From an uncultured Candidatus Poseidoniales archaeon (GTDB lineage: Archaea > Thermoplasmatota > Poseidoniia > Poseidoniales > Thalassarchaeaceae): DNA of 64,000 nt. Numbering within the stretch: position 1 is the first letter of the stretch; each line of letters opens with the position of its first letter. The DNA lies in assembly GCA_964013425.1 (NCBI GenBank), contig CAXGWC010000006.1, forward strand, positions 7,083 to 71,082, written 5' to 3'. The notes beneath the pieces were generated by a model. It searched no databases and was not told where the DNA came from. It saw only the letters and a program-made list of their open reading frames with translations. Shown one piece after another: positions 3,113-36,674 of this stretch. Position numbers and translations under genes: made by a program.

Positions 3113-3757
3113 ATGTTCCCGCCGATGAGGGATAGGGAAAGTCTGTACTCTCCACTAGAATTACACACTCTCCCAATCAAAGGACAATGGCAAGGAAAAA
3201 TAGCCTATCTTGATAGGGATGGGGTAATTATTAGGGGATTCGAGAACTACGTCAATTCTCCCGACGAGGTCGAGGTACTCGCCGGAGCTCCCCAGGCTAT
3301 AGGAGACTTACGAAGAGATGGATTTAGGATATGTATCGTTACTAACCAATCTCCTGTTGGGAGGGGAATTTGGAGTAGAGAAAATCTGGCTAACATACAC
3401 GACAGAGTTCGTTCTGAGATTATCTCAGTAGATCCTGATGCGATTCTCGATTTGACATTACACAGCCCCTACGCTCCTTGGCATAATTCGTGGGCGAGAA
3501 AACCCAATCCTGGTATGCTGGAAGCAGGCAGGCAGATTATTGAGGCCGCAGAGTCACGGATTTTACTCTCTGAGGGTGACATAAAATTTGGCGATGAATG
3601 GAAAAACCGTCCCTCTGAGGTAAATTCTGTAATGGTAGGCGACAGAAATGTAGACATGGAGGCTGCAAAATCATTTGGCGTAAGGTCATTCAAATGCGAT
3701 CCAGACAAGGGATTGAATGAAGTCATCTCAGAAATATTGGTGAGGGAAAATGAGTAA
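3113..3757 (+). CDS. gmhB: HAD-IIIA phosphatase (D,D-heptose 1,7-bisphosphate phosphatase GmhB-like)
   Basis: HAD motifs YLDRDGV (DxD), IVTNQSPVGRG, RKPNPGML and VGDRNVDMEAA. Adjacent to the gmhA-like gene. Confidence 0.6.
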   Translation: MFPPMRDRESLYSPLELHTLPIKGQWQGKIAYLDRDGVIIRGFENYVNSPDEVEVLAGAPQAIGDLRRDGFRICIVTNQSPVGRGIWSRENLANIHDRVRSEIISVDPDAILDLTLHSPYAPWHNSWARKPNPGMLEAGRQIIEAAESRILLSEGDIKFGDEWKNRPSEVNSVMVGDRNVDMEAAKSFGVRSFKCDPDKGLNEVISEILVRENE

Positions 3758-5003
3758 GGGGCTCATTACGGTTAGAATCGGCCTAGATGATACCGATCAC
3801 CCAGATTCCGGCTGTACCACCCATTCTTTTGACCATCTACTGCATGAATTATCTAAAGTCAAGGGAGTAGATATACTAGATAGAATGCTTGTCCGACTTT
3901 GGCCATATGCAACAAGGAGAACTAGAGGTAACGGCGCACTTTCGTCTCGATTATCGTTGCCTATTGAATCAAAAGATCATTTCATGCAAACTTGCTCTGA
4001 TTGGTTCGACGAACTTCTAAATGACATTGTCGAGATTCCCCGGGATCAAAACTCACCATCTCCCGCTCTGTTGATTTCTTTTGGAAAGGTACCTGAGAAC
4101 TGGTATTGGGAAGCCGTCAGAGGGGAGGTCAGACTTGAGCACAGGGAGGAAGAAGTGAACTCATTTGGAATAACGGTTCTCTCTCATCCAGACAAGTGGG
4201 GGATAATTGGAGCCAGTTCAGCAATCTCTTGGAATCCTCCGATTAATCATTCGTGGGAGCTAATTGCTTGGAGGAAATCACACTTAGTAGGCACGAAAAG
4301 AACAGTTTCTAAGGACTCAGTGATGCAGTTATCCGAGTTATTCACGGACACATTCATGAACAGAGATCCCACAGCCGATAAGGGAATTATCGCACCGAGA
4401 ACTCCCTGTCCGGTACTCTATGGAATACGTGGCGCAAGTAAAGAAGCTGTAGAATCCGCACATATCTGGATGCAAGATGTTGAAACCAATGAGAAGTGTG
4501 AATCATGGGCTTCTCACATGTCTAATCAACTATCGGACGACCATCTCTTAGGGCCATCATTTGGTACGGTAATATCTGATCCAAGAGTCGTTAAGGGAGC
4601 ACACGCCAGTCTAAGGGTAATCTCAGAAGGTTCGGGAGAAACTTTGGTTGCTTTCAGCGAAGGGGGCCCTGTAAACAGACTTCTACGACAACTCTCCCCC
4701 GGAGATACGGTTTCTTGGATGGGTCTGAGATCACCAGACAAAGCCATCCATCTTGAAAAATTGAAAATAGTCTCTGCCTCCCCCAGGATTACCACCCGTC
4801 CTAGATGCTGTGGAAAGGCCATGAGGAGCAAGGGTAAAAATCAAGATCTGTCATGTGATAAGTGCAAGATGAAAACCCCAAAATATTGGCTTTCAGACAA
4901 ATGGTCTCCAGATATCCCTAGCTCATTTGATGGTTGGACCCAGCCACCGCCTTCTCAAAGAAGGCATCTTTCCATGCCCCTTGAACTTGGCATCCCTTCT
5001 TAG
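3750..5003 (+). CDS. tiaS: tRNA(Ile2) 2-agmatinylcytidine synthetase TiaS
   Basis: N-terminal IGLDDTDHPDSGCTTH signature and a C-terminal Cys-rich zinc ribbon (CCGKAMRSKGKNQDLSCDKCK). Archaea-specific enzyme. Confidence 0.75.
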   Translation: MSKGLITVRIGLDDTDHPDSGCTTHSFDHLLHELSKVKGVDILDRMLVRLWPYATRRTRGNGALSSRLSLPIESKDHFMQTCSDWFDELLNDIVEIPRDQNSPSPALLISFGKVPENWYWEAVRGEVRLEHREEEVNSFGITVLSHPDKWGIIGASSAISWNPPINHSWELIAWRKSHLVGTKRTVSKDSVMQLSELFTDTFMNRDPTADKGIIAPRTPCPVLYGIRGASKEAVESAHIWMQDVETNEKCESWASHMSNQLSDDHLLGPSFGTVISDPRVVKGAHASLRVISEGSGETLVAFSEGGPVNRLLRQLSPGDTVSWMGLRSPDKAIHLEKLKIVSASPRITTRPRCCGKAMRSKGKNQDLSCDKCKMKTPKYWLSDKWSPDIPSSFDGWTQPPPSQRRHLSMPLELGIPS

Positions 5004-7613: not shown

Positions 7614-8366
7614 CTAGCGATTGGAAGTCAGCCGACCTGAGGAAATATCCCAAGACCCTCTGTTCCTTCGCCACGACTTTTCTCCATCCAGAGTAATCCT
7701 TTTTTTCATGTGAGGGGAATCAAGAACTAAGGTCTCGTACTCTCCTCCCTCTCCGTCAGAATTGAATCTGAATTTTGATGAAATACTAATTAGCTCTTCC
7801 ACATCCGAAACTCCCAATTTTCTACCTATCCACTTGTCATCAAGGCCATCGGATGTTACTGAAGAGATCCTAACATCAAAACCAAGCCTTGGCAAGGATC
7901 TAACATGTTCATCAGGACTGTGATGCCACAATGGTGAGAATGATTTAATGCCAATATTGGAGCACATCCTCTCAATCCTTGTTCTTTGGTAGTCGGATCT
8001 AAGAGCACCCGAGACTAAAGCATCTATTTCCAGTAACCCTTCATGCAAAACTATGCCCTCGTCATCCCAATTTTCAGGCCAGAACAGATCGAAATCTTCA
8101 GCAGGATTGCTTACACCAGATAATCCCAGTTGCAAATCCAGCATTTCCTCATCTTCTATTCCTTCCGTAACAATGGGTAGCCATGGAATTTCGGAAGAGG
8201 CTGATTGAAGTCCTGCGACACAGACTCCACCTGTCTGAAACATCATTGAATCATCCCCCGTAACGCACAAGGTAACTAGAGCTCGAACATCCCAGCCTCT
8301 CATAAGGGCCCACCACGTTGCATACGTAGAGTCCTTCCCTCCAGAGCATAACACGGCCACACGCAT
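7614..8366 (-). CDS. dph6: diphthine-ammonia ligase (MJ0570-type PP-loop ATPase)
   Basis: MRVAVLCSGGKDSTYA PP-loop and GEGGEYETLVLDSP. Start placed at the internal ATG 8366, because the 8471 start would run into psmA. Confidence 0.8.
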   Translation of the reverse strand: MRVAVLCSGGKDSTYATWWALMRGWDVRALVTLCVTGDDSMMFQTGGVCVAGLQSASSEIPWLPIVTEGIEDEEMLDLQLGLSGVSNPAEDFDLFWPENWDDEGIVLHEGLLEIDALVSGALRSDYQRTRIERMCSNIGIKSFSPLWHHSPDEHVRSLPRLGFDVRISSVTSDGLDDKWIGRKLGVSDVEELISISSKFRFNSDGEGGEYETLVLDSPHMKKRITLDGEKSWRRNRGSWDISSGRLTSNR

Positions 8367-8465
8367 GTACCCACGAACCAACCATTCGGCTTGAATGCAA
8401 CGAAAGAGGACGCTATACTCAACTAACCTTGATAAGAGGCCGTTGGTGCATGCATACTGATTACG

Positions 8466-9173
8466 ATGCAACCGAGCGGCCGCGGATACGACTCTTCAGT
8501 AGGAACTTTCTCACCAGACGGACGACTTCACCAAGTTGAGTACGCCCGCGAATCAGTAAAAAGAGGCTCCACAACTGTTGGTGTAAAATTCAGAGACGGC
8601 GTGATATTGATAGTAGCCAAGAGAATACCCAGCAAGCTTGTGATCCCTGAGTCGATAGAGAAGATGTACAAGATTGATGACCACATAGGAATTACCACGT
8701 CTGGATTAGTCGCCGATGCAAGACAACTGGTCGATAGGGCCAGAGTTCAGTGCCAAATTAACAAGATGACCTACGGCGACTCTATTGACGTAACGAACCT
8801 AGTCAAGAAAATGTGCGATTACAAGCAATCATTCACCCAGTATGGTGGTGCGAGGCCTTTCGGAACTGCTTTACTGATAGCTGGAGTTGATTCTGACGGA
8901 CCTCATCTATACGAAACTGATCCTTCTGGAGCCTATGGCTCATATCAGGCAGGAGCCATTGGAAGCGGGAGAAGCGAGGTTATATCTTACTTCGAGGAGA
9001 AATGGAAGCCGGAAATGACAGAAAATGCGGCAATAAAAATAGGCTTAGAGGCACTCTCAAAGACATTCGAGGACGGTTTGTCAGAGGAATCAGTGGAAAT
9101 CTGCGTCATAAATTCCGAAGGTTACAGAGAGCTCACCGCCACGGATTTGGAGAAGCATATTTCCAAGCTCTGA
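8466..9173 (+). CDS. psmA: proteasome subunit alpha
   Basis: YDSSVGTFSPDGRLHQVEYA N-terminal signature. 235 aa. Confidence 0.92.
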   Translation: MQPSGRGYDSSVGTFSPDGRLHQVEYARESVKRGSTTVGVKFRDGVILIVAKRIPSKLVIPESIEKMYKIDDHIGITTSGLVADARQLVDRARVQCQINKMTYGDSIDVTNLVKKMCDYKQSFTQYGGARPFGTALLIAGVDSDGPHLYETDPSGAYGSYQAGAIGSGRSEVISYFEEKWKPEMTENAAIKIGLEALSKTFEDGLSEESVEICVINSEGYRELTATDLEKHISKL

Positions 9174-15251: not shown

Positions 15252-16565
15252 TCACAAAACCGATTCGAAGGGAGATCTATCGGCACCAGGGATTAGGGTT
15301 GCATCCATCCCAATCTTACTTGTCACGCCATCCTCCGACCTACTGGGATCGAGACTAGAACCCCTCTGTCCACTCATGATTATGGTATCTTTGTCCGGTT
15401 GCCATCTGGTCATAAGTGCCCACTCCACTCTTTTCGGATCCGAGATATCTATATCTTCATCGACCACAACTACCTGTTTCATTGAAGGGTGTCCTCTGAA
15501 GGCCGCCTCTATGGCCTGCATCCCGTCCCCCTCATTTTTGGGAATAATCTGGACTACTGAAGACAGCCATCCACACCCTCCATCGGTCATGTGAACATCC
15601 ACACATTCGACTACTTTGGAAACTGCATTCTTTATTGTTGGGGCTCTAGGCATACCCATCAGTGTCCTATGTTCAATACCAGTTGGAATTAGGGCATGGA
15701 AAATCGGGTTTACCCGATGGTGAACATGGTCATATTCAATCACATGCTCCTGCCTAATGTCATCCACAGTCCCAGTGATGTCGACATAGGGCCCCTCATC
15801 ATCTCTCTCGGTGGTTATCCTGGCCTCCATAGCATACTCTGCATCCGCTGGAACCATAACCCCGTTAGGTAATATAACGACCTTCAGAGGAGAACCATGC
15901 AATCTCATGTGCAAAGAAGAAGCGACCGTCAACTCGTCAACATAGTCTGAGAATGACATAGCTGCTGCCAACAATACTGTAGGGTCTGGGCCATTGACTA
16001 CGGCAATGGGCACGTCGTCGCCCGCTTCTGCTGCTTCTGTACTGATCGTCCTTAGGTGCCTAGGAACTAACCTAGCCACTGTATGATTCCCATCTCTCAG
16101 CAATTGTCGATGGATGGAAAGATTCCGTACTCCTGAATACTGAGCAACTATAATTGATGCAGATTGATACCTGCCCCCGTCCTCATGAAAGTGCCAAGGG
16201 ATGGGAAGCTTCCTCAGATCTACTTCCTCTTGGCCTGATTGCATTACGGGTGCGTCAGATGCATCCACAACTTCGGGCTCAGAAGGATTTTCCATCGCCC
16301 ACGCAAGTACATCTATCAAATCACCAGGTGAAATGTTGAACATTTCACACAATCTAGACTTCTCCAGAACGTTCAGAGCTGCCCTGTGCCCCGGGGCCTC
16401 GTCAATGTTATTGAAAACCAAAGGGATATCCCCCATCTTGTTCGAAGCTTCAATCATACCGTGTAAAACACTGATTGATTCCTGTACATTATGAACGCCA
16501 CTGAGCATGTCACGGAAGGCCATATTGGGGGGCGGGGTCAATACATGCTTGAATGTTGGTGACAT
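15252..16565 (-). CDS. UbiD-family (prenyl-FMN dependent) decarboxylase
   Basis: Overall UbiD layout (NVxE...; PIPWHFHEDGGRYxSAS; ITGTVDD). At 437 aa it is shorter than bacterial UbiD. Confidence 0.75.
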   Translation of the reverse strand: MSPTFKHVLTPPPNMAFRDMLSGVHNVQESISVLHGMIEASNKMGDIPLVFNNIDEAPGHRAALNVLEKSRLCEMFNISPGDLIDVLAWAMENPSEPEVVDASDAPVMQSGQEEVDLRKLPIPWHFHEDGGRYQSASIIVAQYSGVRNLSIHRQLLRDGNHTVARLVPRHLRTISTEAAEAGDDVPIAVVNGPDPTVLLAAAMSFSDYVDELTVASSLHMRLHGSPLKVVILPNGVMVPADAEYAMEARITTERDDEGPYVDITGTVDDIRQEHVIEYDHVHHRVNPIFHALIPTGIEHRTLMGMPRAPTIKNAVSKVVECVDVHMTDGGCGWLSSVVQIIPKNEGDGMQAIEAAFRGHPSMKQVVVVDEDIDISDPKRVEWALMTRWQPDKDTIIMSGQRGSSLDPSRSEDGVTSKIGMDATLIPGADRSPFESVL

Positions 16566-17813: not shown

Positions 17814-20021
17814 ATGGGTCGTAAGGAAGACAACATCAAGAGAGCTACAGAGATAATGCATGACCGTGAGCATATCAGAAATATTGCAATAGCCGCACAT
17901 ATCGATCACGGGAAGACTACCCTTTCAGACAACCTGATTGCTGGTGCAGGAATGATGTCTGAAGAATTAGCAGGTAAGTCCAGGGTCCTAGATTTTGACG
18001 AACAAGAAAGCGCCCGAGGCATCACTATCAACGCGGCTAGCGCCTCCATGGTCCACGTTGTCGATGGGCAGGACTATCTGATTAATCTCATTGACACTCC
18101 CGGTCACGTTGATTTCGGGGGAGATGTCACCAGGGCAATGAGGGCAGTTGATGGATGCATCATTCTAGCTTGTGCTGTCGAAGGTACAATGCCACAAACA
18201 GAGACTGTAGTACGACAAGCATTGAAAGAAAAGGTTAGGCCTGTTCTTTTCATCAACAAAGTAGACCGGCTAATCAACGAGTTACAAATTGATGGGCCCG
18301 AAATGATGAGTAGGTTTGAGAAGATTATTACTAAGGTAAACAAGCTGATATCCACATATGCCCCTGAAGATCTTGGCAAGGAATGGCAAGTTTCTGTACA
18401 GAAGGGTACAGTTGCATTTGGATCAGCGTACTACAACTGGGGGATGTCAATACCTTACATGCAGAAGAGTAACATTAACTTTAAGCAGATATTCGAATAT
18501 TGTCACGATGACAATCAGAAAGAACTTGCAAAGCTCGCACCCGTACACACAGTTCTTCTGGATATGACAGTCGAAAAGCACCCCTCTCCCGTAGTTGCTC
18601 AGAGGTATAGAATACCAAATATCTGGCAAGGGGACTTAGACTCCGGTGTCGGCAAGGCAATGATGGAGTGTGATCCTGATGGCCCTCTATCTCTCATGAT
18701 AACCAAGATATGGATGGATCCACATGCTGGTGAGGTAGCTGTTGGGAGGGTGTATTCCGGACGGATTAAGCACGGTGAATCTGTATGGGCAATAGGATCG
18801 GCCAAGGCTGAGAGAGTTCAGCAGGTTGGTATGATGGTTGGAGGAGATAGAATCTCTACCTCAGAGGTGACATCAGGAAATATCGCCGCAATTACAGGGA
18901 TTAGAAGTGCCGCGGCAGGAGTTACAATTGCAAGGGAGAAAGACGCTCCTCCGTTCGAAGCGATAAGGCATATTTCTGAACCCGTGGTCACAGTTGCGGT
19001 AGAACCGAAGTCAATGAAGGACCTGCCCAAGTTCATCGACGCACTCAGGGGGCTCGCGAAAGCAGACGCATCACTAGAGGTATCTACAAACCAAGAGACT
19101 GGTGAGGCTTTACTAGCCGGTATGGGTGAGTTGCATCTTGAAATTACTGTTTACAGACTAGAAGAAGAGCAGGGCATCAAAGTCAAGGTCAGTGAGCCAA
19201 TCGTTGTCTACAGAGAATCTGTTCAATCTGATAACAAGGGAAGGCCATTTGAAGGAAAGTCTCCCAATAGGCATAACAGATTCTATGTAGAGGCAGAGCC
19301 TCTCCCTGACATCGTCGTCGAGAAACTAAGGGCTGGTGAATTCAGAGATGGTACTGTCAGATCCAAAGATGCAAAGGAAATAGGAGATCAATTCGCCGAA
19401 CTAGGCATGAACAAGGACTTGATGAGAAAGATTTACGCTATCAATGGAACAAACGTCCTTGTAAATGACACCAAGGGAATTCAGAATCTTCATGAGACTA
19501 GGGAGCTTATCATAGATGGATTCAATGATGTCTGCAAGAAGGGCCCAGTTGCTGATGAGCCTTTAATGGGAGTCATGGTAAGGCTTGTTGACGCCAAACT
19601 ACACGAGGACGCCATCCACAGGGGACCAGCTCAAACTATTCCCGCTGTGAGGAACGCTGTCAAGGGAGCTTTCATGAGATCAAGACCTGTAATCTTCGAA
19701 CCAATTCAGAAAATCCAGATAGACTCTCCCAACGACGTGATTGGCGGAGTTACCAGAGAAGTCTCCACAAGAAGGGGGATAATTGAGGACATGCCTGTCG
19801 AGGATGGAGTTACCAAGGTAATTGGTACGATTCCCGTTGCTGAGACATTCGGGTTCTCCAATGACATTAGGGCAGCGAGCCAAGGAAGAGCGATTTGGAA
19901 TATGGAAAATGCAGGCTTCGTTCACCTGCCCCCTAATCTGTATGAGAAGGTTACAGCCGAGATCAGGGAAAGAAAGGGACTGAAGCCGGAGATTCCAGGT
20001 GAGACCCACTATCAGGATTAG
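17814..20021 (+). CDS. fusA: translation elongation factor 2 (aEF-2)
   Basis: GTPase motifs AHIDHGKTT, DTPGHVDF and NKVD. Diphthamide-site loop HEDAIHRGPAQ. 735 aa. Confidence 0.97.
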   Translation: MGRKEDNIKRATEIMHDREHIRNIAIAAHIDHGKTTLSDNLIAGAGMMSEELAGKSRVLDFDEQESARGITINAASASMVHVVDGQDYLINLIDTPGHVDFGGDVTRAMRAVDGCIILACAVEGTMPQTETVVRQALKEKVRPVLFINKVDRLINELQIDGPEMMSRFEKIITKVNKLISTYAPEDLGKEWQVSVQKGTVAFGSAYYNWGMSIPYMQKSNINFKQIFEYCHDDNQKELAKLAPVHTVLLDMTVEKHPSPVVAQRYRIPNIWQGDLDSGVGKAMMECDPDGPLSLMITKIWMDPHAGEVAVGRVYSGRIKHGESVWAIGSAKAERVQQVGMMVGGDRISTSEVTSGNIAAITGIRSAAAGVTIAREKDAPPFEAIRHISEPVVTVAVEPKSMKDLPKFIDALRGLAKADASLEVSTNQETGEALLAGMGELHLEITVYRLEEEQGIKVKVSEPIVVYRESVQSDNKGRPFEGKSPNRHNRFYVEAEPLPDIVVEKLRAGEFRDGTVRSKDAKEIGDQFAELGMNKDLMRKIYAINGTNVLVNDTKGIQNLHETRELIIDGFNDVCKKGPVADEPLMGVMVRLVDAKLHEDAIHRGPAQTIPAVRNAVKGAFMRSRPVIFEPIQKIQIDSPNDVIGGVTREVSTRRGIIEDMPVEDGVTKVIGTIPVAETFGFSNDIRAASQGRAIWNMENAGFVHLPPNLYEKVTAEIRERKGLKPEIPGETHYQD

Positions 20022-20022
20022 T

Positions 20023-21753
20023 TCAATTAATCCTGACCAACTGGAAATCAGTCATTTCTCTTAGAATCATCAGCGATTCTGACTCTTCTAGTATGTCAAG
20101 GCACGAATGAGCCTTGGAGTGGTGATACATTGCCCTGTCTTTAGCATATTTTATTGAGTCGTTATCATGCAACTCTTGAACGGCTTCAGCGAGTAAATCT
20201 GGGGAGCAATCTCCCGAGCCGTATGCCTTAGAGAAAGAAGGCAGATGATTTCCCGAGTCTAGAGCATGAATAGCAATCAGAGTTCTTTTTCCTTGCAAAA
20301 TATCTGATCCTGCTGGCTTCCCAAGAGTTTCAGTATCCCCAGTGACATCAATGAGATCGTCCATTAGCTGGAAACATAGTCCCATGTTTAGGCCCCACTC
20401 AGCTAGAGACTTTACTACCTCTTCGGATGCTCCGGAAAGCTTTGCACCCGTCATTGCGCATGTCTCGAACATAGCTGAGGTCTTTCCAGCTATCATCTCT
20501 ATGTACTCTTCTTCAGAGACCACGTCTCTTTTCTCAAACTCCATATCAATCATCTGCCCTTCAGCAACTCTTCTAACCATCTCTCCAATAGACTTCACCA
20601 AGAACACTAGGTCATCTGAGGCAATATGCTCTGATTCAGCCAAAATCTCAAACGCCACAGCCAGCATTGCATCACCTGCATTTATAGCTGTAGCATCGTC
20701 ATAAGCTACATGAACAGCGTCCAAACCCCTTCTGATTGGGTCCTGATCCATGATGTCATCATGTACTAGGGTAAAATTATGAATTATTTCTATAGACGCG
20801 CCTAGGGTATTGTGCCCGGGATTCGATCCACCTACTGCATCTCCTACAAGTTTAGGCATAATCGCCCTGAGCCTCTTTCCGCCTCCAGTGAATAGATGTT
20901 TCATTGCACCGTGTAATCTCTCTTGTTTAATCTTAGACAAACTAGAGAGAATCTCGTTCTCCACGACTTCTCTGTGTTCCTTTAAAGCTCCCATCAATGA
21001 GGAACCAGGTGAAACTTGCTGACCGTCTATTGAAACTTCTCCGAAAATAACGACCCCACTTCTTTTCTTAATATTATTAAAATTAGGATAATGTTCTGCA
21101 CAAAACTCTCTCCAAAGTAGTCTAAACCATGGAGCCACAATTTCCTTTTCCCACTCACCAGAACCATCCATTATCTCTCCTATTCCTTCAGATCCTATCC
21201 ATCTGTGGTTAGAAATCTCGTTCTCATTAGGAACAATCTCTAAGGAATCGACCTTTGTAATCAAAACATGATCTACTTCGTTCTCTAACCATTCTTCATT
21301 CCATCTGCACTTATACTGAAAAGAACCAAGATGGAAGAATTCCATAGAGTTTGCAATATCCTGATCTATTCCCAGCTCTTGGGGAAGCTTTCTCTTCGCC
21401 GCATTAATACAGCCCTGTATTGGGTCTCCATTTTCACCCTCAATGTCTAATGGATGGCTACAACAGCTATTTGCCCAAATTCCAGGAAACGTGATTTTAT
21501 CACGAGACCTCTGTTGAATTAACAACCTATTTTCGGAATCGAAAATTAGGACACTGAATGCTCTGTGGAGCATATCTTCTTCTATGTGACAGGCCAATTT
21601 ACTCTCGGAACCAATCATATTATCCTTAAGATCAACTAGAATACAACGCTCAGCCATCATCTCTGCCTGCGAGTTATCATACCCAGAGAGAGCGTTTGCA
21701 CCATCAACCATGACATTCCGAGAAACCCTCGACATATAACAGAATCCAATCAT
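20023..21753 (-). CDS. fusion protein: type-1 isopentenyl-diphosphate isomerase (N-terminal) :: geranylgeranyl/polyprenyl diphosphate synthase (C-terminal)
   Basis: N-terminal half has HRAFSVLIFDSENRLLIQQRSRDKITFPGIWANSCCSHP and ENEVDHV (IDI-1 Cys/Glu). C-terminal half has FARM LVHDDIMDQD and SARM FQLMDDLIDVTG. One uninterrupted 576-aa frame. Confidence 0.85.
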   Translation of the reverse strand: MIGFCYMSRVSRNVMVDGANALSGYDNSQAEMMAERCILVDLKDNMIGSESKLACHIEEDMLHRAFSVLIFDSENRLLIQQRSRDKITFPGIWANSCCSHPLDIEGENGDPIQGCINAAKRKLPQELGIDQDIANSMEFFHLGSFQYKCRWNEEWLENEVDHVLITKVDSLEIVPNENEISNHRWIGSEGIGEIMDGSGEWEKEIVAPWFRLLWREFCAEHYPNFNNIKKRSGVVIFGEVSIDGQQVSPGSSLMGALKEHREVVENEILSSLSKIKQERLHGAMKHLFTGGGKRLRAIMPKLVGDAVGGSNPGHNTLGASIEIIHNFTLVHDDIMDQDPIRRGLDAVHVAYDDATAINAGDAMLAVAFEILAESEHIASDDLVFLVKSIGEMVRRVAEGQMIDMEFEKRDVVSEEEYIEMIAGKTSAMFETCAMTGAKLSGASEEVVKSLAEWGLNMGLCFQLMDDLIDVTGDTETLGKPAGSDILQGKRTLIAIHALDSGNHLPSFSKAYGSGDCSPDLLAEAVQELHDNDSIKYAKDRAMYHHSKAHSCLDILEESESLMILREMTDFQLVRIN

Positions 21754-30876: not shown

Positions 30877-31004
30877 CACTGAAGTTCGGGTAACGGAATT
30901 CACATGCCTGCTAGAAAATCTAACTAATGATGCTTTCCGGAGTCGTCGCTTCACGATGGCAGACGAATTCTTATGATGTCGATACCCGACCAACAATCGT
31001 TACT

Positions 31005-32219
31005 ATGACGCTCGACGCCGTAGCAGTTTCTAATTCGGACTGGAGAGCTGAGCTTTCAAGCATGGATATTCCATTAGCAGTTTCCACAGATAATGTAACT
31101 CTAGAGTGTCTCGAGACGCTTATTTCAACAGGCCGTTTAACCTTCGATCAGGGTGTAAGACTGATGGTTAACCCGAATCTCAACTCAGTAACCTCATTGG
31201 CTGATATGGTGAAGAAAGCTAGGTTTCAGGATTTTGTGTTTTTCAATGAGAATCTTCATGTTAACTCCACTAATGTATGTGTTTTGGCTTGTAGGTTTTG
31301 CGCATTCAGAAAGGGTCCAAGACATCCAGATGCATATTCGTTGAGCGTCAATGAGTATCTTGAGAGAGTCAGGCCCTACGCAACCAGGATAGATGAAGTT
31401 CACACAGTTGGCGGATTACATCCAACATGGACCGTTGCTGAATATTGTGAGCTGTTTTCAAATCTAAAGAATGAATTTCCACATATTCACATCAAAGCCC
31501 TAACTGCAGTCGAGATAAAGCATCTATCATCAAGGTCCTCTCTTTCCTTCTCTGAGACCCTATCTAGGCTTTCAGAGGCAGGTCTTAATTCACTACCGGG
31601 AGGAGGTGCAGAGATTCTTGTGGATAGTGTAAGAGATCGTATTTGTATGGGCAAGGAATCTTCAGATGAGTATCTGGAGATTCATGGGGTGGCCCATTCG
31701 TTAGGAATTCCTACCAACTGTACAATGCTGTTTGGTACTGTTGAATCTATAGAAGACAGAATCAACCATTTGTTGAGACTTAGAGAACAACAAGACGAAT
31801 CATTAGGCTTTCAGTGTTTTGTCCCTTATCCATTTTTGCCGGATAAGACAAGACTGCCCGAAGCACAGCTCGCCACTGGGCAGGAGATAATACGCATGAT
31901 TTCTGTCTCTAGGCTAATGCTGGACAATATACCACATATCAAGGCATATAGAATGAATATTGGCGATAAACTCGCCTCATATGCAATAAATTGTGGCGCA
32001 GACGATGTTGATGGAACAGTTGGTCATGAAGAAATAATGCATGAAGCCGGAAGTAAGACAAGCCTCACCACCAGCTCAGAACAATTAGCCAGAATGGTGG
32101 TCTCATCTGGTGCCATACCAGTAAAGAGAAACTCCACTTACTCACAATTTGAGATAGTCGATCCTCCGGAAGGAAAACCCTCCCATTTTCTCCCTGTCAT
32201 CACAGTCGAGGTTCCTTAA
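31005..32219 (+). CDS. radical SAM futalosine-pathway enzyme (aminodeoxyfutalosine synthase MqnE / MqnC family)
   Basis: Radical SAM cluster NVCVLACRFCAF with a C-terminal MqnE/MqnC/CofH-like TIM domain. Immediately upstream of mqnA. I cannot separate MqnE from MqnC by eye. Confidence 0.75.
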   Translation: MTLDAVAVSNSDWRAELSSMDIPLAVSTDNVTLECLETLISTGRLTFDQGVRLMVNPNLNSVTSLADMVKKARFQDFVFFNENLHVNSTNVCVLACRFCAFRKGPRHPDAYSLSVNEYLERVRPYATRIDEVHTVGGLHPTWTVAEYCELFSNLKNEFPHIHIKALTAVEIKHLSSRSSLSFSETLSRLSEAGLNSLPGGGAEILVDSVRDRICMGKESSDEYLEIHGVAHSLGIPTNCTMLFGTVESIEDRINHLLRLREQQDESLGFQCFVPYPFLPDKTRLPEAQLATGQEIIRMISVSRLMLDNIPHIKAYRMNIGDKLASYAINCGADDVDGTVGHEEIMHEAGSKTSLTTSSEQLARMVVSSGAIPVKRNSTYSQFEIVDPPEGKPSHFLPVITVEVP

Positions 32220-33023
32220 ATGAGTTGGAAGGACGTAATTGGCAGGGTATCTTTTTCTAACTGCGACCCTATTTTTGATGGAATTAGCCCTAAATGGACG
32301 ATCCTCTCAGCGCCACCAGCCTGGTTAACTGGCCATGTGATGAGAAGGGACTGTATCGCAGCCCCTATCCCATCTGCAGATTATGCTTCTAATAGTGGAA
32401 AACTAATGTTACTTCCGGATATAGGCATAGTCAGTAATGGCGAGGTTGGCTCTGTACTGCTTTTCGGCAATCGTCCGATAGAAAATATGAGGGATATTGC
32501 CCTACCAACTGACTCTTCAACCTCCAAGGTATTACTAAGTTGGATTATCAAGAACCGTGGTCTAGATCCGAAATTCATCGAGACTGGACCGGATATAAAT
32601 ATCATGTTAGAAAAATGCGATGGGGCTCTTCTTATTGGCGATAGAGCGATTTTAGCATCTATTTCCCATCCAGAATTAGTGAAAATGGATTTAGGAGCCG
32701 AATGGACTAGAATTACAGGTCTACCAATGGTCTTTGGAGTGTTTGTAGCTAGAAGGGACTCCCCAGAAGATACTTTGAGGGAAGCGCATTCTGAAATGAT
32801 TAAGCAAGTAGAGCTCTTTGAAAACGATCCAAAATGGAGAGCTTCTGTTATATCCCGAACATCTAAAAAACTTGGATTTCCAGAAAGAAGGGTTGAAGAT
32901 TATTTTAGAGAGGAGGTAAGGAATAGAATGTCCCAAGATGATATTGACGGCCTCCTTTTATTCTTAAAAGAGGCATGTGGGATGTCTGAGCCCCCTGTCT
33001 GGCTCGAACCTCAATCTGAATAA
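32220..33023 (+). CDS. mqnA: chorismate dehydratase MqnA
   Basis: PBP-fold MqnA/MqnD family with GALLIGDRAI and LPMVFGVFVARRD, typical of MqnA. Confidence 0.75.
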   Translation: MSWKDVIGRVSFSNCDPIFDGISPKWTILSAPPAWLTGHVMRRDCIAAPIPSADYASNSGKLMLLPDIGIVSNGEVGSVLLFGNRPIENMRDIALPTDSSTSKVLLSWIIKNRGLDPKFIETGPDINIMLEKCDGALLIGDRAILASISHPELVKMDLGAEWTRITGLPMVFGVFVARRDSPEDTLREAHSEMIKQVELFENDPKWRASVISRTSKKLGFPERRVEDYFREEVRNRMSQDDIDGLLLFLKEACGMSEPPVWLEPQSE

Positions 33024-33490
33024 TTCAGCTTTCTGCTGGAAACCCATTCTAGTAGGTCTAGTGCTACTTCGCACGACTCTGCGACGACGATATCTTTGTC
33101 ATCCTTGAATCTCTCTAAAACGCTCAAAGCTGTCCTATCGCCTATCGCCCCCAGAGCCTCCGCTGCCTCGTGTCTGACCATTACATCCTCTCCATAATCT
33201 TCCAGCCTATCAATTAAGTAAGGTACCGCTGCTGAATCTTGCATTTGGCCCATTACATATGCTATTTCATGTTTCAAAAGGGCCGATGATGATGAAAAGG
33301 CGGCCGCCAGAGCATCTACTGAATCATTTCCACCGATATTTCTGAGTGCAAACAGAGCCCTCATTCTCTGAAACATCTTTTCTTCTTCATCACATAAAGT
33401 TGCCCGAAGTCTAGAGACGTCATTAACAGTACTTGGTGGGGCGGGATCTACAGAATCAAATTCACTTACTTCAGGTCTCTTTTCATTCAT
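33011..33490 (-). CDS. half-length deoxyhypusine hydroxylase (DOHH/Lia1)-like HEAT-repeat di-iron protein
   Basis: SVDPAPP, FQRMRALFALRNIGG, SALLKHEIAYVMGQMQ, VMVRHEAAEALGAIG and VVAESCEVALDLLEW match the C-terminal half of eukaryotic DOHH from memory, including both HE motifs. Only 159 aa. Confidence 0.7.
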   Translation of the reverse strand: MNEKRPEVSEFDSVDPAPPSTVNDVSRLRATLCDEEEKMFQRMRALFALRNIGGNDSVDALAAAFSSSSALLKHEIAYVMGQMQDSAAVPYLIDRLEDYGEDVMVRHEAAEALGAIGDRTALSVLERFKDDKDIVVAESCEVALDLLEWVSSRKLNYSD

Positions 33491-33492
33491 GT

Positions 33493-34362
33493 TTATTCAC
33501 CCGAACCAACGAAAACAATTGAATCTACATCCAAATTAGATCTGACCATACCTATTTCTTGACCCTTTCTGAGGAATAATCGTATAGCTTCTCTACCGTC
33601 GTCTCCATAGTCAAGGGTCCGTTTATTCACATACATACCGACGAATTCCTCGTTTGTTTCATCATCTATCCCTCTTCCCCATTCCTTGGCAAATTCCAAT
33701 GCATCTTCAGGGTTTGAGAGTGAGTGCTCAATGCTATTTCTTACATCTTCTGTAATTTTCCCACACATTTCCAATCCTAGATCTTTCCTCACCACATTGC
33801 CTCCCAAAGGTAGAGGAAGACCAGTCTTCTCATTCCACCAAATTCCCAGATCGAGAACAAGATTGACCCCCTCATTCTTCCAAGTTAGCTGTCCTTCATG
33901 AATAATGACTCCAACGTCGTACTCGCCACTCTTAACTGACGGCATAATTTCATCAAATGGCACCACCTTGTAGTCAACATCCCCTAGGGCTAACCTTAGT
34001 GATAGGTAGGCGCTAGTTCCAACACCAGGAATAGCGAAAACCTTGTTTTTTGCTTCTTCTACAGTCATTTTTTCTTTAGAAATTATCATTGGTCCGTATC
34101 CCTCTCCCATGGAAGCTCCACAGTTCATTAAATGATACTTATCAGAAATGTTGGGGAAAGAGTGTATGCTGACTGCAGAAACCTCGTAGTCACCATTAAT
34201 TGCATGCTGATTCAAAGTCTCTATATCCAACAGAACGTGTTCATATTTCCTATCATCAGTGTCTATGGCGCCTGTTGTCATTGCATGGAACATGAATGCG
34301 TCATCTGGGTCGGGAGAGTGTCCAACTCTGTACACTGTCTCATCGCTCATGTACAGCCGCAT
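33493..34362 (-). CDS. mqnD: 1,4-dihydroxy-6-naphthoate synthase MqnD
   Basis: VGHSPDPDDAFMFHAM, DVGVIIHEGQLT and DLGIWWNEKTGLPLPLGGNVVRKDLG match MqnD. The ORF is open to 34545, but homolog-like starts are at 34362 or 34392. Confidence 0.78.
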   Translation of the reverse strand: MRLYMSDETVYRVGHSPDPDDAFMFHAMTTGAIDTDDRKYEHVLLDIETLNQHAINGDYEVSAVSIHSFPNISDKYHLMNCGASMGEGYGPMIISKEKMTVEEAKNKVFAIPGVGTSAYLSLRLALGDVDYKVVPFDEIMPSVKSGEYDVGVIIHEGQLTWKNEGVNLVLDLGIWWNEKTGLPLPLGGNVVRKDLGLEMCGKITEDVRNSIEHSLSNPEDALEFAKEWGRGIDDETNEEFVGMYVNKRTLDYGDDGREAIRLFLRKGQEIGMVRSNLDVDSIVFVGSGE

Positions 34363-34673
34363 GCAAGGCGATTCAAAATTCCTCCGTGTCATAACTCTCT
34401 GTAGTAAGAGTGAATAATCGCTACCCTGACGAATGGTCATGCCAGACCCCGACAAGCTATCCACGGCCACAGGACAGCTCGGTCCTATCTGCTCCGTCAC
34501 AGGTAAGCCGATTACATTCTCAGAAGCTATAGTTGTAGACGACAAATACGTATGCTACGAGGCATACGTGGAACTAATGGGCCAGGGCTCCGCTACTGAT
34601 TCTCGAGAAGTCCCATCCAAGCTACCGTTGGAATGATGGGCACCTTCATGAAGGACTGTCTCCCCTAGGTAAC

Positions 34674-35876: not shown

Positions 35877-36674
35877 ATGTTGAATAGTGTAGAGTCCCGG
35901 AAATCAACTGAGACGAGTATGCCGGACGATGAAGAATCTTTGGTAGGGCCCAATGGAATGCCCTTGCCACCACCCCCGCCAGGACTCAATTTACCCCCTC
36001 CCCCTCCCATTCCAGTACCTCCACCACCACCCGTCGAACCCAATGAAAACCCTAAATCTGAAAATGATTCGGAAGATATTGAAAATCCTTCTGAAGAAGA
36101 GGCAAAGAATGATTTTCAAAGCCACTGGGAGAAGAGGAAATCTGACAGGGATCCCCCAACAATAGAGAGTAGGGATAGCATGTATGGACACATAGACAGA
36201 ATCTCGTCTGGACAGGTGGGTTCCCTGATGGATAGGTTCTCTGATCGATTTGGCTCAGAACTAGATAGGGAGATTATTGTACTCAGAAAAAAGCAACAAC
36301 AAGACCTACTCGCAATTAAGCCAACCGTAGAGCTAATTTCCTCTCCTGATGATGATCATGAACAAGAATCAGGAGACCAGGTTAAAGAAATTGAAGAGGA
36401 CTCGGCAGATTTATTCCCACAGTTCTTCGAAATCGTGAACAATCTCCTCGGTGATATGGATGAGGATTTCATTAACTCATTTGTCTCCTCAGACGACTTC
36501 CCCCTCTTCCAAGAGGTCGGCGAGGATCCAACCGAATGCGATGATGAGACAAAGTCAGAGTTTTTCTCTATGATAAATAGAGTACTGGGAGAGCTCCCAG
36601 AGGAAAAGATCGGAGATTTCGTCGCTTCACCTGGTTTTGCAATCTATCAAGAGATGGGCGAGATTTATTCATGA
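35877..36674 (+). CDS. hypothetical polyproline/acidic protein with duplicated C-terminal motif
   Basis: PLPPPPPGLNLPPPPPIPVPPPPPVEP tract, a very acidic remainder, and two copies of FFxxxNxxLGxxxExxIxxFVxSxxFxxxQExGE. Confidence 0.6.
   Translation: MLNSVESRKSTETSMPDDEESLVGPNGMPLPPPPPGLNLPPPPPIPVPPPPPVEPNENPKSENDSEDIENPSEEEAKNDFQSHWEKRKSDRDPPTIESRDSMYGHIDRISSGQVGSLMDRFSDRFGSELDREIIVLRKKQQQDLLAIKPTVELISSPDDDHEQESGDQVKEIEEDSADLFPQFFEIVNNLLGDMDEDFINSFVSSDDFPLFQEVGEDPTECDDETKSEFFSMINRVLGELPEEKIGDFVASPGFAIYQEMGEIYS

What the first reader, a model, noticed from the sequence alone, without database searches (positions are those of the whole stretch)
33011..33490. Half-size deoxyhypusine hydroxylase (DOHH) homolog in an archaeon, co-oriented 2 nt behind mqnD
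The 159-aa product resembles the C-terminal half of eukaryotic DOHH/Lia1 almost block for block. The shared blocks are SVDPAPP, F-x-R-x-RA-x-FALRN-x-GG, SALLKHEIAYVMGQMQ, VMVRHEAAEALGAIG and VVAESCEVALDLLEW. Both His-Glu pairs (KHE, RHE) that each DOHH half contributes to the di-iron centre are retained. Eukaryotic DOHH has 8 HEAT repeats arranged as two symmetric halves. This gene encodes only 4, so an active site would need a homodimer, which is what an ancestral, pre-duplication form would look like. As far as I know, no hydroxylase for hypusine formation on aIF5A has been assigned in archaea. The gene sits 2 nt downstream of mqnD and its 3' end overlaps mqnA convergently. An alternative reading is therefore a di-iron hydroxylase recruited to quinone or other small-molecule chemistry. 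A third option is late transfer of a half gene from a eukaryote.
Basis: partly seen in the sequence, partly recalled or inferred. Interest (0 to 1): 0.8.

Follow-up and report, generated by a model that had tools for sequence, protein, structure and literature searches.

The report
Half-size archaeal deoxyhypusine hydroxylase homolog
Marine group II archaea carry a conserved gene that is one half of the eukaryotic enzyme completing hypusine on translation factor 5A; reviews say archaea lack this enzyme, and two copies could pair to rebuild its two-iron active site.

Summary
Window 33011-33490 (-) encodes a 159-aa protein with four HEAT repeats. It matches human deoxyhypusine hydroxylase (DOHH, PDB 4D4Z) at E=6e-77, hitting both halves (122 and 137 bits). 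Natural PBS-lyase HEAT proteins score 24-28 bits.

The organism is a marine group II archaeon (Poseidoniales). At least 243 related genes are all 150-176 aa. The iron-ligand and substrate-binding positions (H74, E75, G81, H107, E108) are invariant in 178 unique sequences. Median dN/dS is about 0.13. A second half-size clade occurs in high-GC Thermoplasmatota.

No genuine full-length prokaryotic copy appeared. Three "bacterial" hits are mislabelled eukaryotic DNA.

The archaeal half is about 45% identical to eukaryotic N-halves and 47% to C-halves, which share only 38%. It is therefore neither a recently captured C-half nor an N/C chimera. Its position relative to the duplication is unresolved.

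A homology-guided tandem model superposes on 4D4Z at 1.8 A.

The mqnD linkage is tight across MGII but absent in five MGII-like loci and in all of clade 2.

Most likely function: a homodimeric di-iron hydroxylase acting on aIF5A (about 0.6, untested). KEGG/JGI pipelines already label it DOHH; I found no paper discussing it.

The parts
33011..33490 (-). Half-size DOHH homolog: 159 aa, four HEAT repeats
   Evidence: ORF. E=6.4e-77 to human DOHH 4D4Z, matching both halves. Conserved at 150-176 aa in 243 archaeal genes; median dN/dS 0.135.
33434..33454 (-). Lead-in motif S13-V-D-P-A-P-P19, the same motif as the inter-domain linker before the eukaryotic C-half
   Evidence: S13, D15, P16 and P18 are invariant in 178 unique archaeal sequences. 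In eukaryotes the motif lies 59-63 residues upstream of the first His of the C-half, as in the archaeal protein (D15 to H74 = 59).
33266..33271 (-). First His-Glu motif, H74-E75, equivalent to human H56-E57 and H207-E208 (iron ligand plus substrate-binding Glu)
   Evidence: Alignment. DNA reads CATGAA on the minus strand. Invariant in 178/178. Residue roles from PMC9117371.
33248..33250 (-). G81, aligned with the conserved Gly of the HE-x-AY-x-x-GQ block (human G214; the first-half partner is printed as G65 in PMC9117371 and falls at residue 63 in the alignment)
   Evidence: Alignment; invariant in 178/178; role.
33167..33172 (-). Second His-Glu motif, H107-E108, equivalent to human H89-E90 and H240-E241 (iron ligands), 33 residues after the first
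   Evidence: Alignment. DNA reads CACGAG on the minus strand. Invariant in 178/178.
33491..33501 (-). Junction with mqnD: TAA stop (33493-33495), 2-nt spacer, and a GGTGA Shine-Dalgarno-like string (33497-33501) 6 nt before the ATG. Co-transcription and translational coupling are inferred.
   Evidence: Sequence. The gap between the mqnD stop and the start codon is -8 to +13 nt in 163 of 164 distinct loci.
33493..34350 (-). mqnD (1,4-dihydroxy-6-naphthoate synthase), probable 285-aa form. The listed TTG start at 34545 is over-extended.
   Evidence: Pfam VitK2_biosynth 4e-68. PDB MqnD TTHA1568 1.6e-51. Relatives are 285-303 aa.
32220..33023 (+). mqnA (chorismate dehydratase), convergent, overlapping the half-DOHH 3' end by 13 nt
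   Evidence: Pfam VitK2_biosynth 3.1e-49. PDB chorismate dehydratase 2.5e-23.
30927..32219 (+). MqnE/MqnC-type radical-SAM enzyme directly upstream of mqnA
   Evidence: NCBIfam MqnE 389 bits and MqnC 329 bits, both below their cut-offs.

Best explanation
The gene encodes an archaeal member of the deoxyhypusine hydroxylase lineage built from a single four-HEAT-repeat module.

Shown: it is a specific homolog of both halves of eukaryotic DOHH. It keeps every residue that one DOHH half contributes to the di-iron centre (H74, H107, E108) and to binding the deoxyhypusine side chain (E75, E108, G81). It is under purifying selection and is always half-size.

Inferred: two subunits pair about a two-fold axis, as the N- and C-halves do in human DOHH. 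Each subunit ligates one iron, giving a 4-His/2-Glu di-iron site at the interface. The centre activates O2 and hydroxylates C2 of the deoxyhypusine residue that deoxyhypusine synthase has placed on aIF5A, yielding hypusine. An O2-requiring step fits the oxic surface-ocean habitat of MGII.

The gene is probably co-transcribed with mqnD in MGII, most likely as operon packing in a compact genome and not as a shared pathway. In sequence terms it lies near the common ancestor of the two eukaryotic halves.
For: Specific homology: 259.8 bits, E=6.4e-77 to 4D4Z, with the N-half at 121.8 and the C-half at 136.8 bits. The top non-archaeal hits among 1.84 billion representatives are roughly 300-aa proteins with four HE motifs, confirmed eukaryotic where named.

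Catalytic and substrate residues are invariant in 178 unique sequences; their roles come from PMC9117371. Median dN/dS is 0.135. The gene is present in at least 282-393 GTDB species-level genomes of Poseidoniales and related Thermoplasmatota.

The tandem model has pLDDT 93 and pTM 0.91, and fits 4D4Z at rmsd 1.8 A over 287-289 residues.

Pathway partners are in the same kind of genome. MGII MAG SIMO Bin 19-2 has aIF5A (K03263), DHS (K00809, next to speD) and this gene (K06072, overlapping mqnD), each with at least one non-zero value in the table's expression columns (PMC9723583, supplement 4).

Independence from mqn: clade 2 has an iPGM / M28 peptidase / gene / PurH / PurN / FolC context. MGII-like loci L060, L128, L197, L220 and L157 keep an intact gene with no upstream mqnD.
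Against: There is no biochemical evidence for iron binding, dimerisation or activity. The confident dimer-like model used eukaryotic DOHH rows, so it is not independent; the single-sequence tandem model was poor (pLDDT 61). The gene is never adjacent to dhs or aIF5A in any locus examined. Its only conserved partner is mqnD, with a -8 to +13 nt junction in 163 of 164 loci. Older amino-acid analyses found mainly deoxyhypusine, not hypusine, in Euryarchaeota including Thermoplasmales (PMC5178350); MGII was never tested. Crenarchaea that do make hypusine did not appear among the hits I could list, so this gene cannot be the general archaeal solution.
Confidence: 0.6

Rival explanations
1. A DOHH-derived di-iron oxygenase recruited to menaquinone (futalosine-pathway) or other small-molecule chemistry. 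It would be co-expressed with MqnD and act on a naphthoate or quinone intermediate, or on a lineage-specific quinone modification.
For: mqnD lies immediately upstream and co-oriented in 164 distinct loci from both MGII families, with a stop-to-start gap of -8 to +13 nt in 163 of them. This holds although mqnA/mqnE and priS change position around the pair. The gene sits inside a three-gene mqn cluster in the window.
Against: To my knowledge no step from chorismate to menaquinone via futalosine needs a hydroxylase (general knowledge, not tested here). No MqnD fusion exists in about 240 genes. Clade 2 and five MGII-like loci keep an intact, fully conserved gene with no adjacent mqn gene. The Glu and Gly residues that bind the deoxyhypusine side chain in human DOHH are invariant. 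Identity of 45-47% to eukaryotic halves is as high as eukaryotic halves share among themselves, which argues against a change of substrate.
Confidence: 0.15
2. A DOHH-lineage protein that no longer makes hypusine, or never did. Examples: an iron-binding or aIF5A-binding factor without hydroxylase activity, or a hydroxylase for another aminoalkylated protein or polyamine.
For: Function is untested. Euryarchaeota examined so far contain mostly deoxyhypusine. There is no neighbourhood link to dhs or aIF5A.
Against: Invariance of all six ligand and substrate positions across clades that share only 52-60% identity, and GC from 29% to 74%, is what an active enzyme predicts. Eukaryotic DOHH is reported to have a single known substrate.
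Confidence: 0.12
3. Origin rival: a late (post-LECA) transfer of the C-terminal half of a eukaryotic DOHH gene, or an N/C chimera made by unequal crossover, into a marine archaeon.
For: The SVDPAPP lead-in is otherwise found only in the linker before the eukaryotic C-half. The archaeal core is slightly closer to C-halves than to N-halves (45-47% against 43-45%). The prokaryotic distribution seen is narrow, limited to Poseidoniales plus one other Thermoplasmatota clade.
Against: A captured C-half should be as far from N-halves as C-halves are (38%), but it is at 43-45%. In all three segments (21-60, 61-117, 118-151) the archaeal halves are closer to both N and C than N is to C, so there is no chimera signature. 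At diagnostic columns the archaeal consensus matches N at 9, C at 4 and neither at 4. No eukaryotic half exceeds 53% identity, so there is no candidate donor. In quartet mapping the A+C grouping is the least favoured (28%; plurality in 7 of 100 bootstraps).
Confidence: 0.05
4. An ordinary PBS-lyase-type HEAT scaffold protein, which is how NCBI names it, with no DOHH-specific function.
For: Pfam sees only HEAT_PBS and HEAT_2. NCBI names include 'HEAT repeat domain-containing protein' and 'PBS lyase'.
Against: NblB and CpcE models score 38.9 and 24.9 bits against cut-offs of 300 and 330. CpcE and YibA structures score 24-28 bits against 260 for DOHH. The HE motifs that define DOHH, reported absent from YibA, are invariant here.
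Confidence: 0.03

Closest known systems
Eukaryotic deoxyhypusine hydroxylase (DOHH / yeast Lia1 / Drosophila Nero; EC 1.14.99.29; PDB 4D4Z)
   Same: HEAT-repeat fold. Two His-Glu motifs per four-repeat module, 33 residues apart. The conserved Gly and Glu that bind the deoxyhypusine side chain. The M-V-R-H-E-A-x-E-A-L-G-x-I block. The SVDPAPP lead-in before the module. 43-47% identity to each half, and 47% over a tandem model that fits 4D4Z at 1.8 A.
   Different: Half the length: four repeats in 159 aa, against eight repeats in about 300 aa, so a complete 4-His/2-Glu site needs two chains. Found in archaea. Usually in an operon-like pair with mqnD. Activity, iron content and oligomeric state are untested.
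PBS-lyase HEAT-like repeat proteins (Pfam PF03130: CpcE/CpcF, NblB, E. coli YibA, MTH187) and the alphaRep designs derived from them
   Same: The same repeat type and solenoid architecture. These are the only Pfam families that match.
   Different: No His-Glu motifs. Scores are 10-fold lower. Continuous solenoids fit the tandem model poorly (TM about 0.38, rmsd about 14 A).
Archaeal homo-oligomers whose eukaryotic counterparts are fused or heteromeric paralogs (for example archaeal histone homodimers versus eukaryotic heterodimers)
   Same: A symmetric single-gene archaeal form alongside a duplicated, asymmetric eukaryotic form. The archaeal sequence is roughly equidistant from both eukaryotic copies and on a shorter branch.
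   Different: This is an analogy of pattern only. Here the archaeal form is confined to part of Thermoplasmatota and did not appear in any other archaeal lineage among the hits listed, so vertical inheritance into eukaryotes is not implied.

Membership tests
Deoxyhypusine hydroxylase (DOHH) | Sequence similarity specific to DOHH, above generic HEAT-repeat similarity, and reciprocal | tested here: met
   4D4Z scores 259.8 bits, E=6.4e-77, with both halves matched. The next natural HEAT proteins score 24-28 bits. The best non-archaeal hits among 1.84 billion representatives are eukaryotic DOHHs.
Deoxyhypusine hydroxylase (DOHH) | His-Glu motifs that ligate the di-iron centre (human H56, H89, E90 / H207, H240, E241): two per four-repeat module, 33 residues apart | tested here: met
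   H74-E75 and H107-E108 have the correct spacing and are invariant in 178/178 unique archaeal sequences. Roles from PMC9117371.
Deoxyhypusine hydroxylase (DOHH) | Residues that bind the deoxyhypusine side chain (human E57/E208, E90/E241, and the conserved Gly of the GQ block, G214 and its first-half partner) | tested here: met
   E75, E108 and G81 align to these positions and are invariant.
Deoxyhypusine hydroxylase (DOHH) | Eight HEAT repeats in one chain, arranged as two symmetric four-repeat domains | tested here: not met
   There are only four repeats: 159 aa here and 150-176 aa in 243 relatives. No full-length archaeal gene appeared among the loci examined. It is therefore a variant architecture, not a canonical member.
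Deoxyhypusine hydroxylase (DOHH) | Dyad arrangement of two modules that brings the four His and two Glu together | tested here: inconclusive
   A tandem construct modelled with eukaryotic DOHH rows gave pLDDT 93 and rmsd 1.8 A to 4D4Z. That is compatibility only.
Deoxyhypusine hydroxylase (DOHH) | Co-occurrence with the substrate pathway (IF5A, deoxyhypusine synthase, spermidine supply) | tested here: met
   One MGII MAG carries K03263 (aIF5A), K00809 (DHS, next to speD) and this gene (PMC9723583, supplement 4). DHS is reported in all archaeal genomes. None of these is in the window among the ORFs scanned.
Deoxyhypusine hydroxylase (DOHH) | Binds two Fe per active site and converts deoxyhypusine-IF5A to hypusine-IF5A using O2 | not testable with these tools
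   This needs protein expression, metal analysis and an activity assay, or mass spectrometry of MGII aIF5A.
Futalosine (mqn) menaquinone pathway | Conserved genomic linkage with mqn genes in every lineage that carries the gene | tested here: not met
   Linkage to mqnD is tight in 164 MGII loci. It is absent in L060, L128, L197, L220 and L157, and in every clade-2 locus. There are no fusions.
Futalosine (mqn) menaquinone pathway | A known pathway step that needs an O2-dependent hydroxylase | not tested
   To my knowledge the described steps (MqnA, E, B, C, D, then prenylation, decarboxylation and methylation) include no hydroxylation. This rests on general knowledge, not on a tool result.
PBS-lyase HEAT proteins (CpcE/F, NblB) | Passes the curated family score | tested here: not met
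   NblB scores 38.9 against 300, CpcE 24.9 against 330 and CpeY 14.9 against 600.

The most novel reading that the evidence does not exclude
The half-size gene is a surviving descendant of the unduplicated, homodimeric ancestor of DOHH. On this reading the eukaryotic enzyme arose before LECA by tandem duplication and fusion of such a gene, and the gene passed between the eukaryotic stem lineage and aerobic Thermoplasmatota (direction unknown) before that duplication. MGII archaea would then make true hypusine with a symmetric di-iron enzyme. This would be the first archaeal DOHH and a minimal model of the enzyme.
Probability: 0.35. Interest if true: 0.85.

Novelty: new variant of a known kind. 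Interest (0 to 1): 0.72.

Why it matters
Papers on hypusine state that no DOHH ortholog exists in archaea (PMC5178350, PMC3306375), although some archaea contain hypusine. This gene is a clear DOHH-lineage homolog in one of the most abundant archaeal groups of the surface ocean, so that statement needs qualifying.

The gene makes three questions directly testable:
- Do MGII archaea carry hypusine or deoxyhypusine on aIF5A?
- Can a symmetric homodimer form the unusually stable peroxo-di-iron centre of DOHH? A 159-aa subunit would be a minimal system for spectroscopy and crystallography.
- How did the eight-repeat eukaryotic enzyme arise? The archaeal sequence lies near the node joining the two eukaryotic halves.

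It does not explain hypusine in Crenarchaea, which did not appear among the hits I could list. It also shows that a correct automatic label (K06072) has sat unnoticed in supplementary tables.

Tried and rejected
1. The single-sequence tandem model had pLDDT 61 and pTM 0.42, too poor to judge how the halves pack.
3. Alignment A3 was staggered, because the first copy aligned to eukaryotic C-halves through SVDPAPP. It was discarded and replaced by A4.
4. Rooting attempts failed. NJ with seven generic HEAT segments as outgroup gave (N+C)|(archaeal+outgroup) in the point tree, but bootstrap support was negligible. Quartet mapping gave 37/28/35%. The rooting is unresolved.
5. The search for a 'fossil' SVDPAPP before eukaryotic N-halves found only 3 weak candidates among 73 proteins. 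That is not convincing.
6. The chimera hypothesis (N-like in 46-117, C-like in 135-142) was rejected by segment-wise identities.
7. Three full-length 'bacterial' DOHH genes (L172, L173, L205) are eukaryotic DNA under bacterial labels. The evidence is an intron-split COP9 CSN3, split NDH2 and GT8 genes, and intron-split DOHH.
8. An apparent mqnD remnant in L060 and L128 is an artefact: the antisense translation of a conserved small ORF matching the over-extended N-terminus of the window's mqnD ORF.
9. dhs and aIF5A were not found in the window among the ORFs scanned or in the fetched loci.
10. No viral copies were found, and there is no second paralog in the window.
11. Literature searches for an archaeal DOHH, for Asgard with deoxyhypusine, and for MGII with hypusine found no description of this gene. 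Park et al. 2006 (PMC1324997) is not held.
Full report
**1. The observation**

The ORF at 33011-33490 on the minus strand is real: ATG start, 159 aa. The two His-Glu pairs are H74-E75 and H107-E108, 33 residues apart.

The gene starts 2 nt after the TAA stop of the upstream co-oriented gene. A GGTGA string lies 6 nt before the ATG. The last 13 nt overlap the convergent downstream gene.

Comparison with solved structures identifies the neighbours. The upstream gene is MqnD (TTHA1568, 2CZL/3A3U, E=1.6e-51). The downstream gene is MqnA (chorismate dehydratase, 7AHR, E=2.5e-23). A MqnE/MqnC-type radical-SAM gene precedes mqnA.

**2. It is DOHH-like, not a generic HEAT protein**

Pfam has no DOHH-specific model and reports only HEAT_PBS and HEAT_2. 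Against all PDB sequences, the best match by far is human DOHH (4D4Z/4D50) at 259.8 bits, E=6.4e-77. There are two matched stretches: query 21-151 against DOHH 8-138 (121.8 bits), and query 6-153 against DOHH 144-291 (136.8 bits).

Other HEAT proteins score far lower:
- Designed alphaRep proteins reach at most about 42 bits per stretch.
- The natural lyase subunit CpcE scores 27.7 bits.
- YibA scores 23.8 bits.

NCBIfam models for NblB and CpcE score 38.9 and 24.9 bits, against cut-offs of 300 and 330.

In an exhaustive search of 1.84 billion representative proteins, the best hits after the gene's own cluster are roughly 300-aa proteins. They show two matched stretches, four HE motifs and a DPxP linker, at 41-52% identity. 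Those that carry names are eukaryotic DOHHs.

**3. Organism and distribution**

The closest proteins (78-99% identity, nearly all 159 aa) come from Poseidoniales/Thalassarchaeaceae MAGs, that is, marine group IIb. The rest of the window is archaeal housekeeping: PriS, aEF2, proteasome, exosome, TiaS, Kae1 and split transketolase.

Scans of one genome per GTDB species found at least 282 to 393 genomes with a relative. The listed loci are MGIIb (about 70-97% identity), MGIIa/Poseidoniaceae (about 55-66%), and a second clade of 168-176-aa proteins in high-GC (62-74%) MAGs labelled Thermoplasmatota.

From the fetched loci I extracted 243 genes, 177 of them unique coding sequences. Lengths are 150-176 aa, with a mode of 159. 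One apparent outlier reflects a start-codon call.

These positions are invariant in all 178 unique sequences (177 plus the window's): S13, D15, P16, P18, H74, E75, Y78, G81, Q82, R106, H107, E108, E111, G114 and C140. Median dN/dS over 61 unsaturated pairs is 0.135. This is a real gene under purifying selection and not a remnant.

**4. No full-length relative**

A profile of eukaryotic DOHHs scanned against the prokaryotic genome collection put three full-length matches at the top, all in records labelled bacterial. All three are eukaryotic DNA:
- L172 lies next to a COP9 signalosome subunit 3 gene split into exons.
- L205 lies among split NDH2 and GT8 genes.
- The DOHH reading frames of L173 and L205 are interrupted by introns.

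Every archaeal locus listed is half-size. The gene was not found on viral contigs, and there is no second copy in the window.

**5. Relation to the two eukaryotic halves**

I cut 143 eukaryotic DOHHs into N- and C-cores registered on the HE motifs, and aligned them with 217 archaeal cores. Identities over the 131-residue core were:

| Comparison | Identity |
|---|---|
| Window protein to N-halves | 44.6% |
| Window protein to C-halves | 46.6% |
| N-half to C-half | 38% |
| N-halves among themselves | 46% |
| C-halves among themselves | 50% |

After removing near-duplicate sequences, the pattern holds in each of three segments. Archaeal halves are closer to both N and C than N is to C.

At columns where the N and C consensus differ, the archaeal consensus matches N at 9, C at 4 and neither at 4. 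No eukaryotic half exceeds 53% identity to the window protein.

This rejects a recent capture of a eukaryotic C-half, and it rejects an N/C crossover chimera. Mean distances give a shorter branch for the archaeal group, and the three groups radiate from nearly one point.

Rooting with generic HEAT segments is unresolved: NJ bootstraps are negligible and quartets split 37/28/35%. One character favours a link to the C-half. The SVDPAPP lead-in lies 59 residues before the first His in the archaeal protein and 59-63 residues before it in the eukaryotic C-half, and it is essentially absent before N-halves.

The honest conclusion is a deep, pre-LECA-like three-way split with an ancestral-like archaeal sequence. 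Whether the archaeal lineage left before the duplication or just after it cannot be decided here.

**6. Structure**

A head-to-tail construct served as a stand-in for a homodimer: residues 21-159 followed by residues 1-159, which mimics the eukaryotic layout. Modelled with 31 eukaryotic DOHH sequences as the alignment, it gave pLDDT 93 and pTM 0.91.

Foldseek places it on 4D4Z at TM 0.91-0.94 and rmsd 1.8 A over 287-289 residues. Continuous eight-repeat solenoids fit at TM about 0.38 and rmsd about 14 A.

Two copies are therefore compatible with the DOHH dyad, and by alignment H74, H107 and E108 of each copy fall on the iron ligands. This is homology-guided and not independent evidence.

**7. 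Genomic context and function**

In MGII the mqnD-to-gene pair is strikingly conserved. It occurs in 164 distinct loci. The stop-to-start gap is -8 to +13 nt in 163 of them and 32 nt in one, with no fusions. This holds while mqnA/mqnE and priS change position around the pair. That argues for co-transcription.

The link is not obligatory:
- L060 and L128 lack mqnD and mqnE at the locus.
- L197 and L220 have the gene alone, upstream of priS.
- L157 has no mqn gene within 7 kb.
- Every clade-2 locus has the order iPGM, M28 peptidase, the gene, PurH, PurN, FolC.

No locus places the gene beside dhs or aIF5A. The supplementary table of an MGII metatranscriptome study, however, lists all three for one MAG: aIF5A, DHS (next to speD) and this gene. 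The gene is labelled 'PBS lyase HEAT' by eggNOG and K06072 DOHH by KEGG, and it overlaps mqnD. Each shows at least one non-zero value in the table's expression columns (PMC9723583).

According to the literature, H56, H89, E90, H207, H240 and E241 anchor the di-iron centre, while E57, E90, E208, E241 and two Gly residues bind the deoxyhypusine side chain (PMC9117371). Every equivalent position is invariant here.

I therefore favour a homodimeric di-iron deoxyhypusine hydroxylase acting on aIF5A (about 0.6). A quinone-related or other small-molecule oxygenase is the main rival (about 0.15).

**8. What is known**

Papers repeatedly state that archaea have no DOHH ortholog (PMC5178350, PMC3306375). 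Early analyses found hypusine in Crenarchaea and mainly deoxyhypusine in Euryarchaeota, including Thermoplasmales.

My searches of the paper library found no description of an archaeal or half-size DOHH, and the MGII papers returned do not mention hypusine. Automatic pipelines (JGI, KEGG) already call these genes 'deoxyhypusine monooxygenase', so the label exists but its significance has gone unremarked.

The gene meets the sequence-level definitions of DOHH and fails the eight-repeat architecture. I file it as a new variant of a known kind.

**9. Verdict**

The limits are that function, metal content and dimerisation are untested, and that the evolutionary polarity is unresolved. The finding does not explain hypusine in Crenarchaea.

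Noticed in passing
L172 (OZ245997.1, 1015587-1022516); L173 (JAIYDP010000069.1); L205 (MNJR01000114.1): Records in the prokaryotic genome collection labelled Putridiphycobacter sp. (a 6.9-Mb 'chromosome 1'), Verrucomicrobiaceae and Acidobacteria carry eukaryotic DNA. The evidence is an intron-split COP9 signalosome subunit 3, split NDH2 and GT8 genes, and full-length DOHH genes with introns. These are mislabelled or contaminated assemblies.
   Followed up: partly
L140 (Yoonia sp.), L158 (Deltaproteobacteria), L194 ('bacterium'), L154 ('Halobacteriales'): Contigs with typical MGII or Thermoplasmatota gene order (MqnD / half-DOHH / PriS, or M28 / half-DOHH / PurH) are filed under unrelated taxa. 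They are probably binning or labelling errors.
   Followed up: no
window 34433-34636 (+); L060 3220-3414; L157 6701-6973: A conserved Cys-containing small ORF of 64-90 aa lies between mqnD and priS in all MGII loci examined, and has no Pfam hit on record. Its antisense translation overlaps the over-extended TTG start (34545) that the ORF listing gives for mqnD. The real mqnD start is probably the ATG at 34350, giving 285 aa.
   Followed up: partly
window 35877-36674 (+); L060 888-1859; L157 4215-5450: A conserved acidic protein with long polyproline runs (for example PPPPPGLNLPPPPPIPVPPPPPVEP) sits next to priS and has no Pfam match. Translation of polyproline tracts is what IF5A assists, so this is a curious neighbour for a putative IF5A-modifying enzyme.
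   Followed up: no
L086 7542-9902 (also L087, L089): In one deep MGIIb clade (protein P0224), a 786-aa WD40 beta-propeller gene is inserted between the half-DOHH and mqnA.
   Followed up: no
window 30927-32219 (+): The radical-SAM gene next to mqnA scores below the curated cut-offs of both MqnE (389 against 434.6) and MqnC (329 against 428). I did not look for a second paralog, so which futalosine-pathway step it performs is unclear.
   Followed up: no
window 7614-8471 (-), 3750-5003 (+), 17814-20021 (+): The window also encodes a diphthamide-synthase-like protein (modification of aEF2), the tRNA agmatidine synthase TiaS, and aEF2 itself. These are further translation-factor and tRNA modification genes of the type shared by archaea and eukaryotes.
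   Followed up: no
window 15252-16565 (-), 20023-21753 (-): A UbiD-family decarboxylase and a NUDIX-polyprenyl synthase fusion lie 11-18 kb from the mqn genes. They may be later menaquinone-pathway or isoprenoid genes.
   Followed up: no
L050/L099 and L076/L116 (MAG PAOK01, contigs 8 and 48): One MAG carries the MqnD / half-DOHH locus on two different contigs (74-76% identity to the window protein). That suggests a mixed-strain bin more than a true duplication.
   Followed up: no
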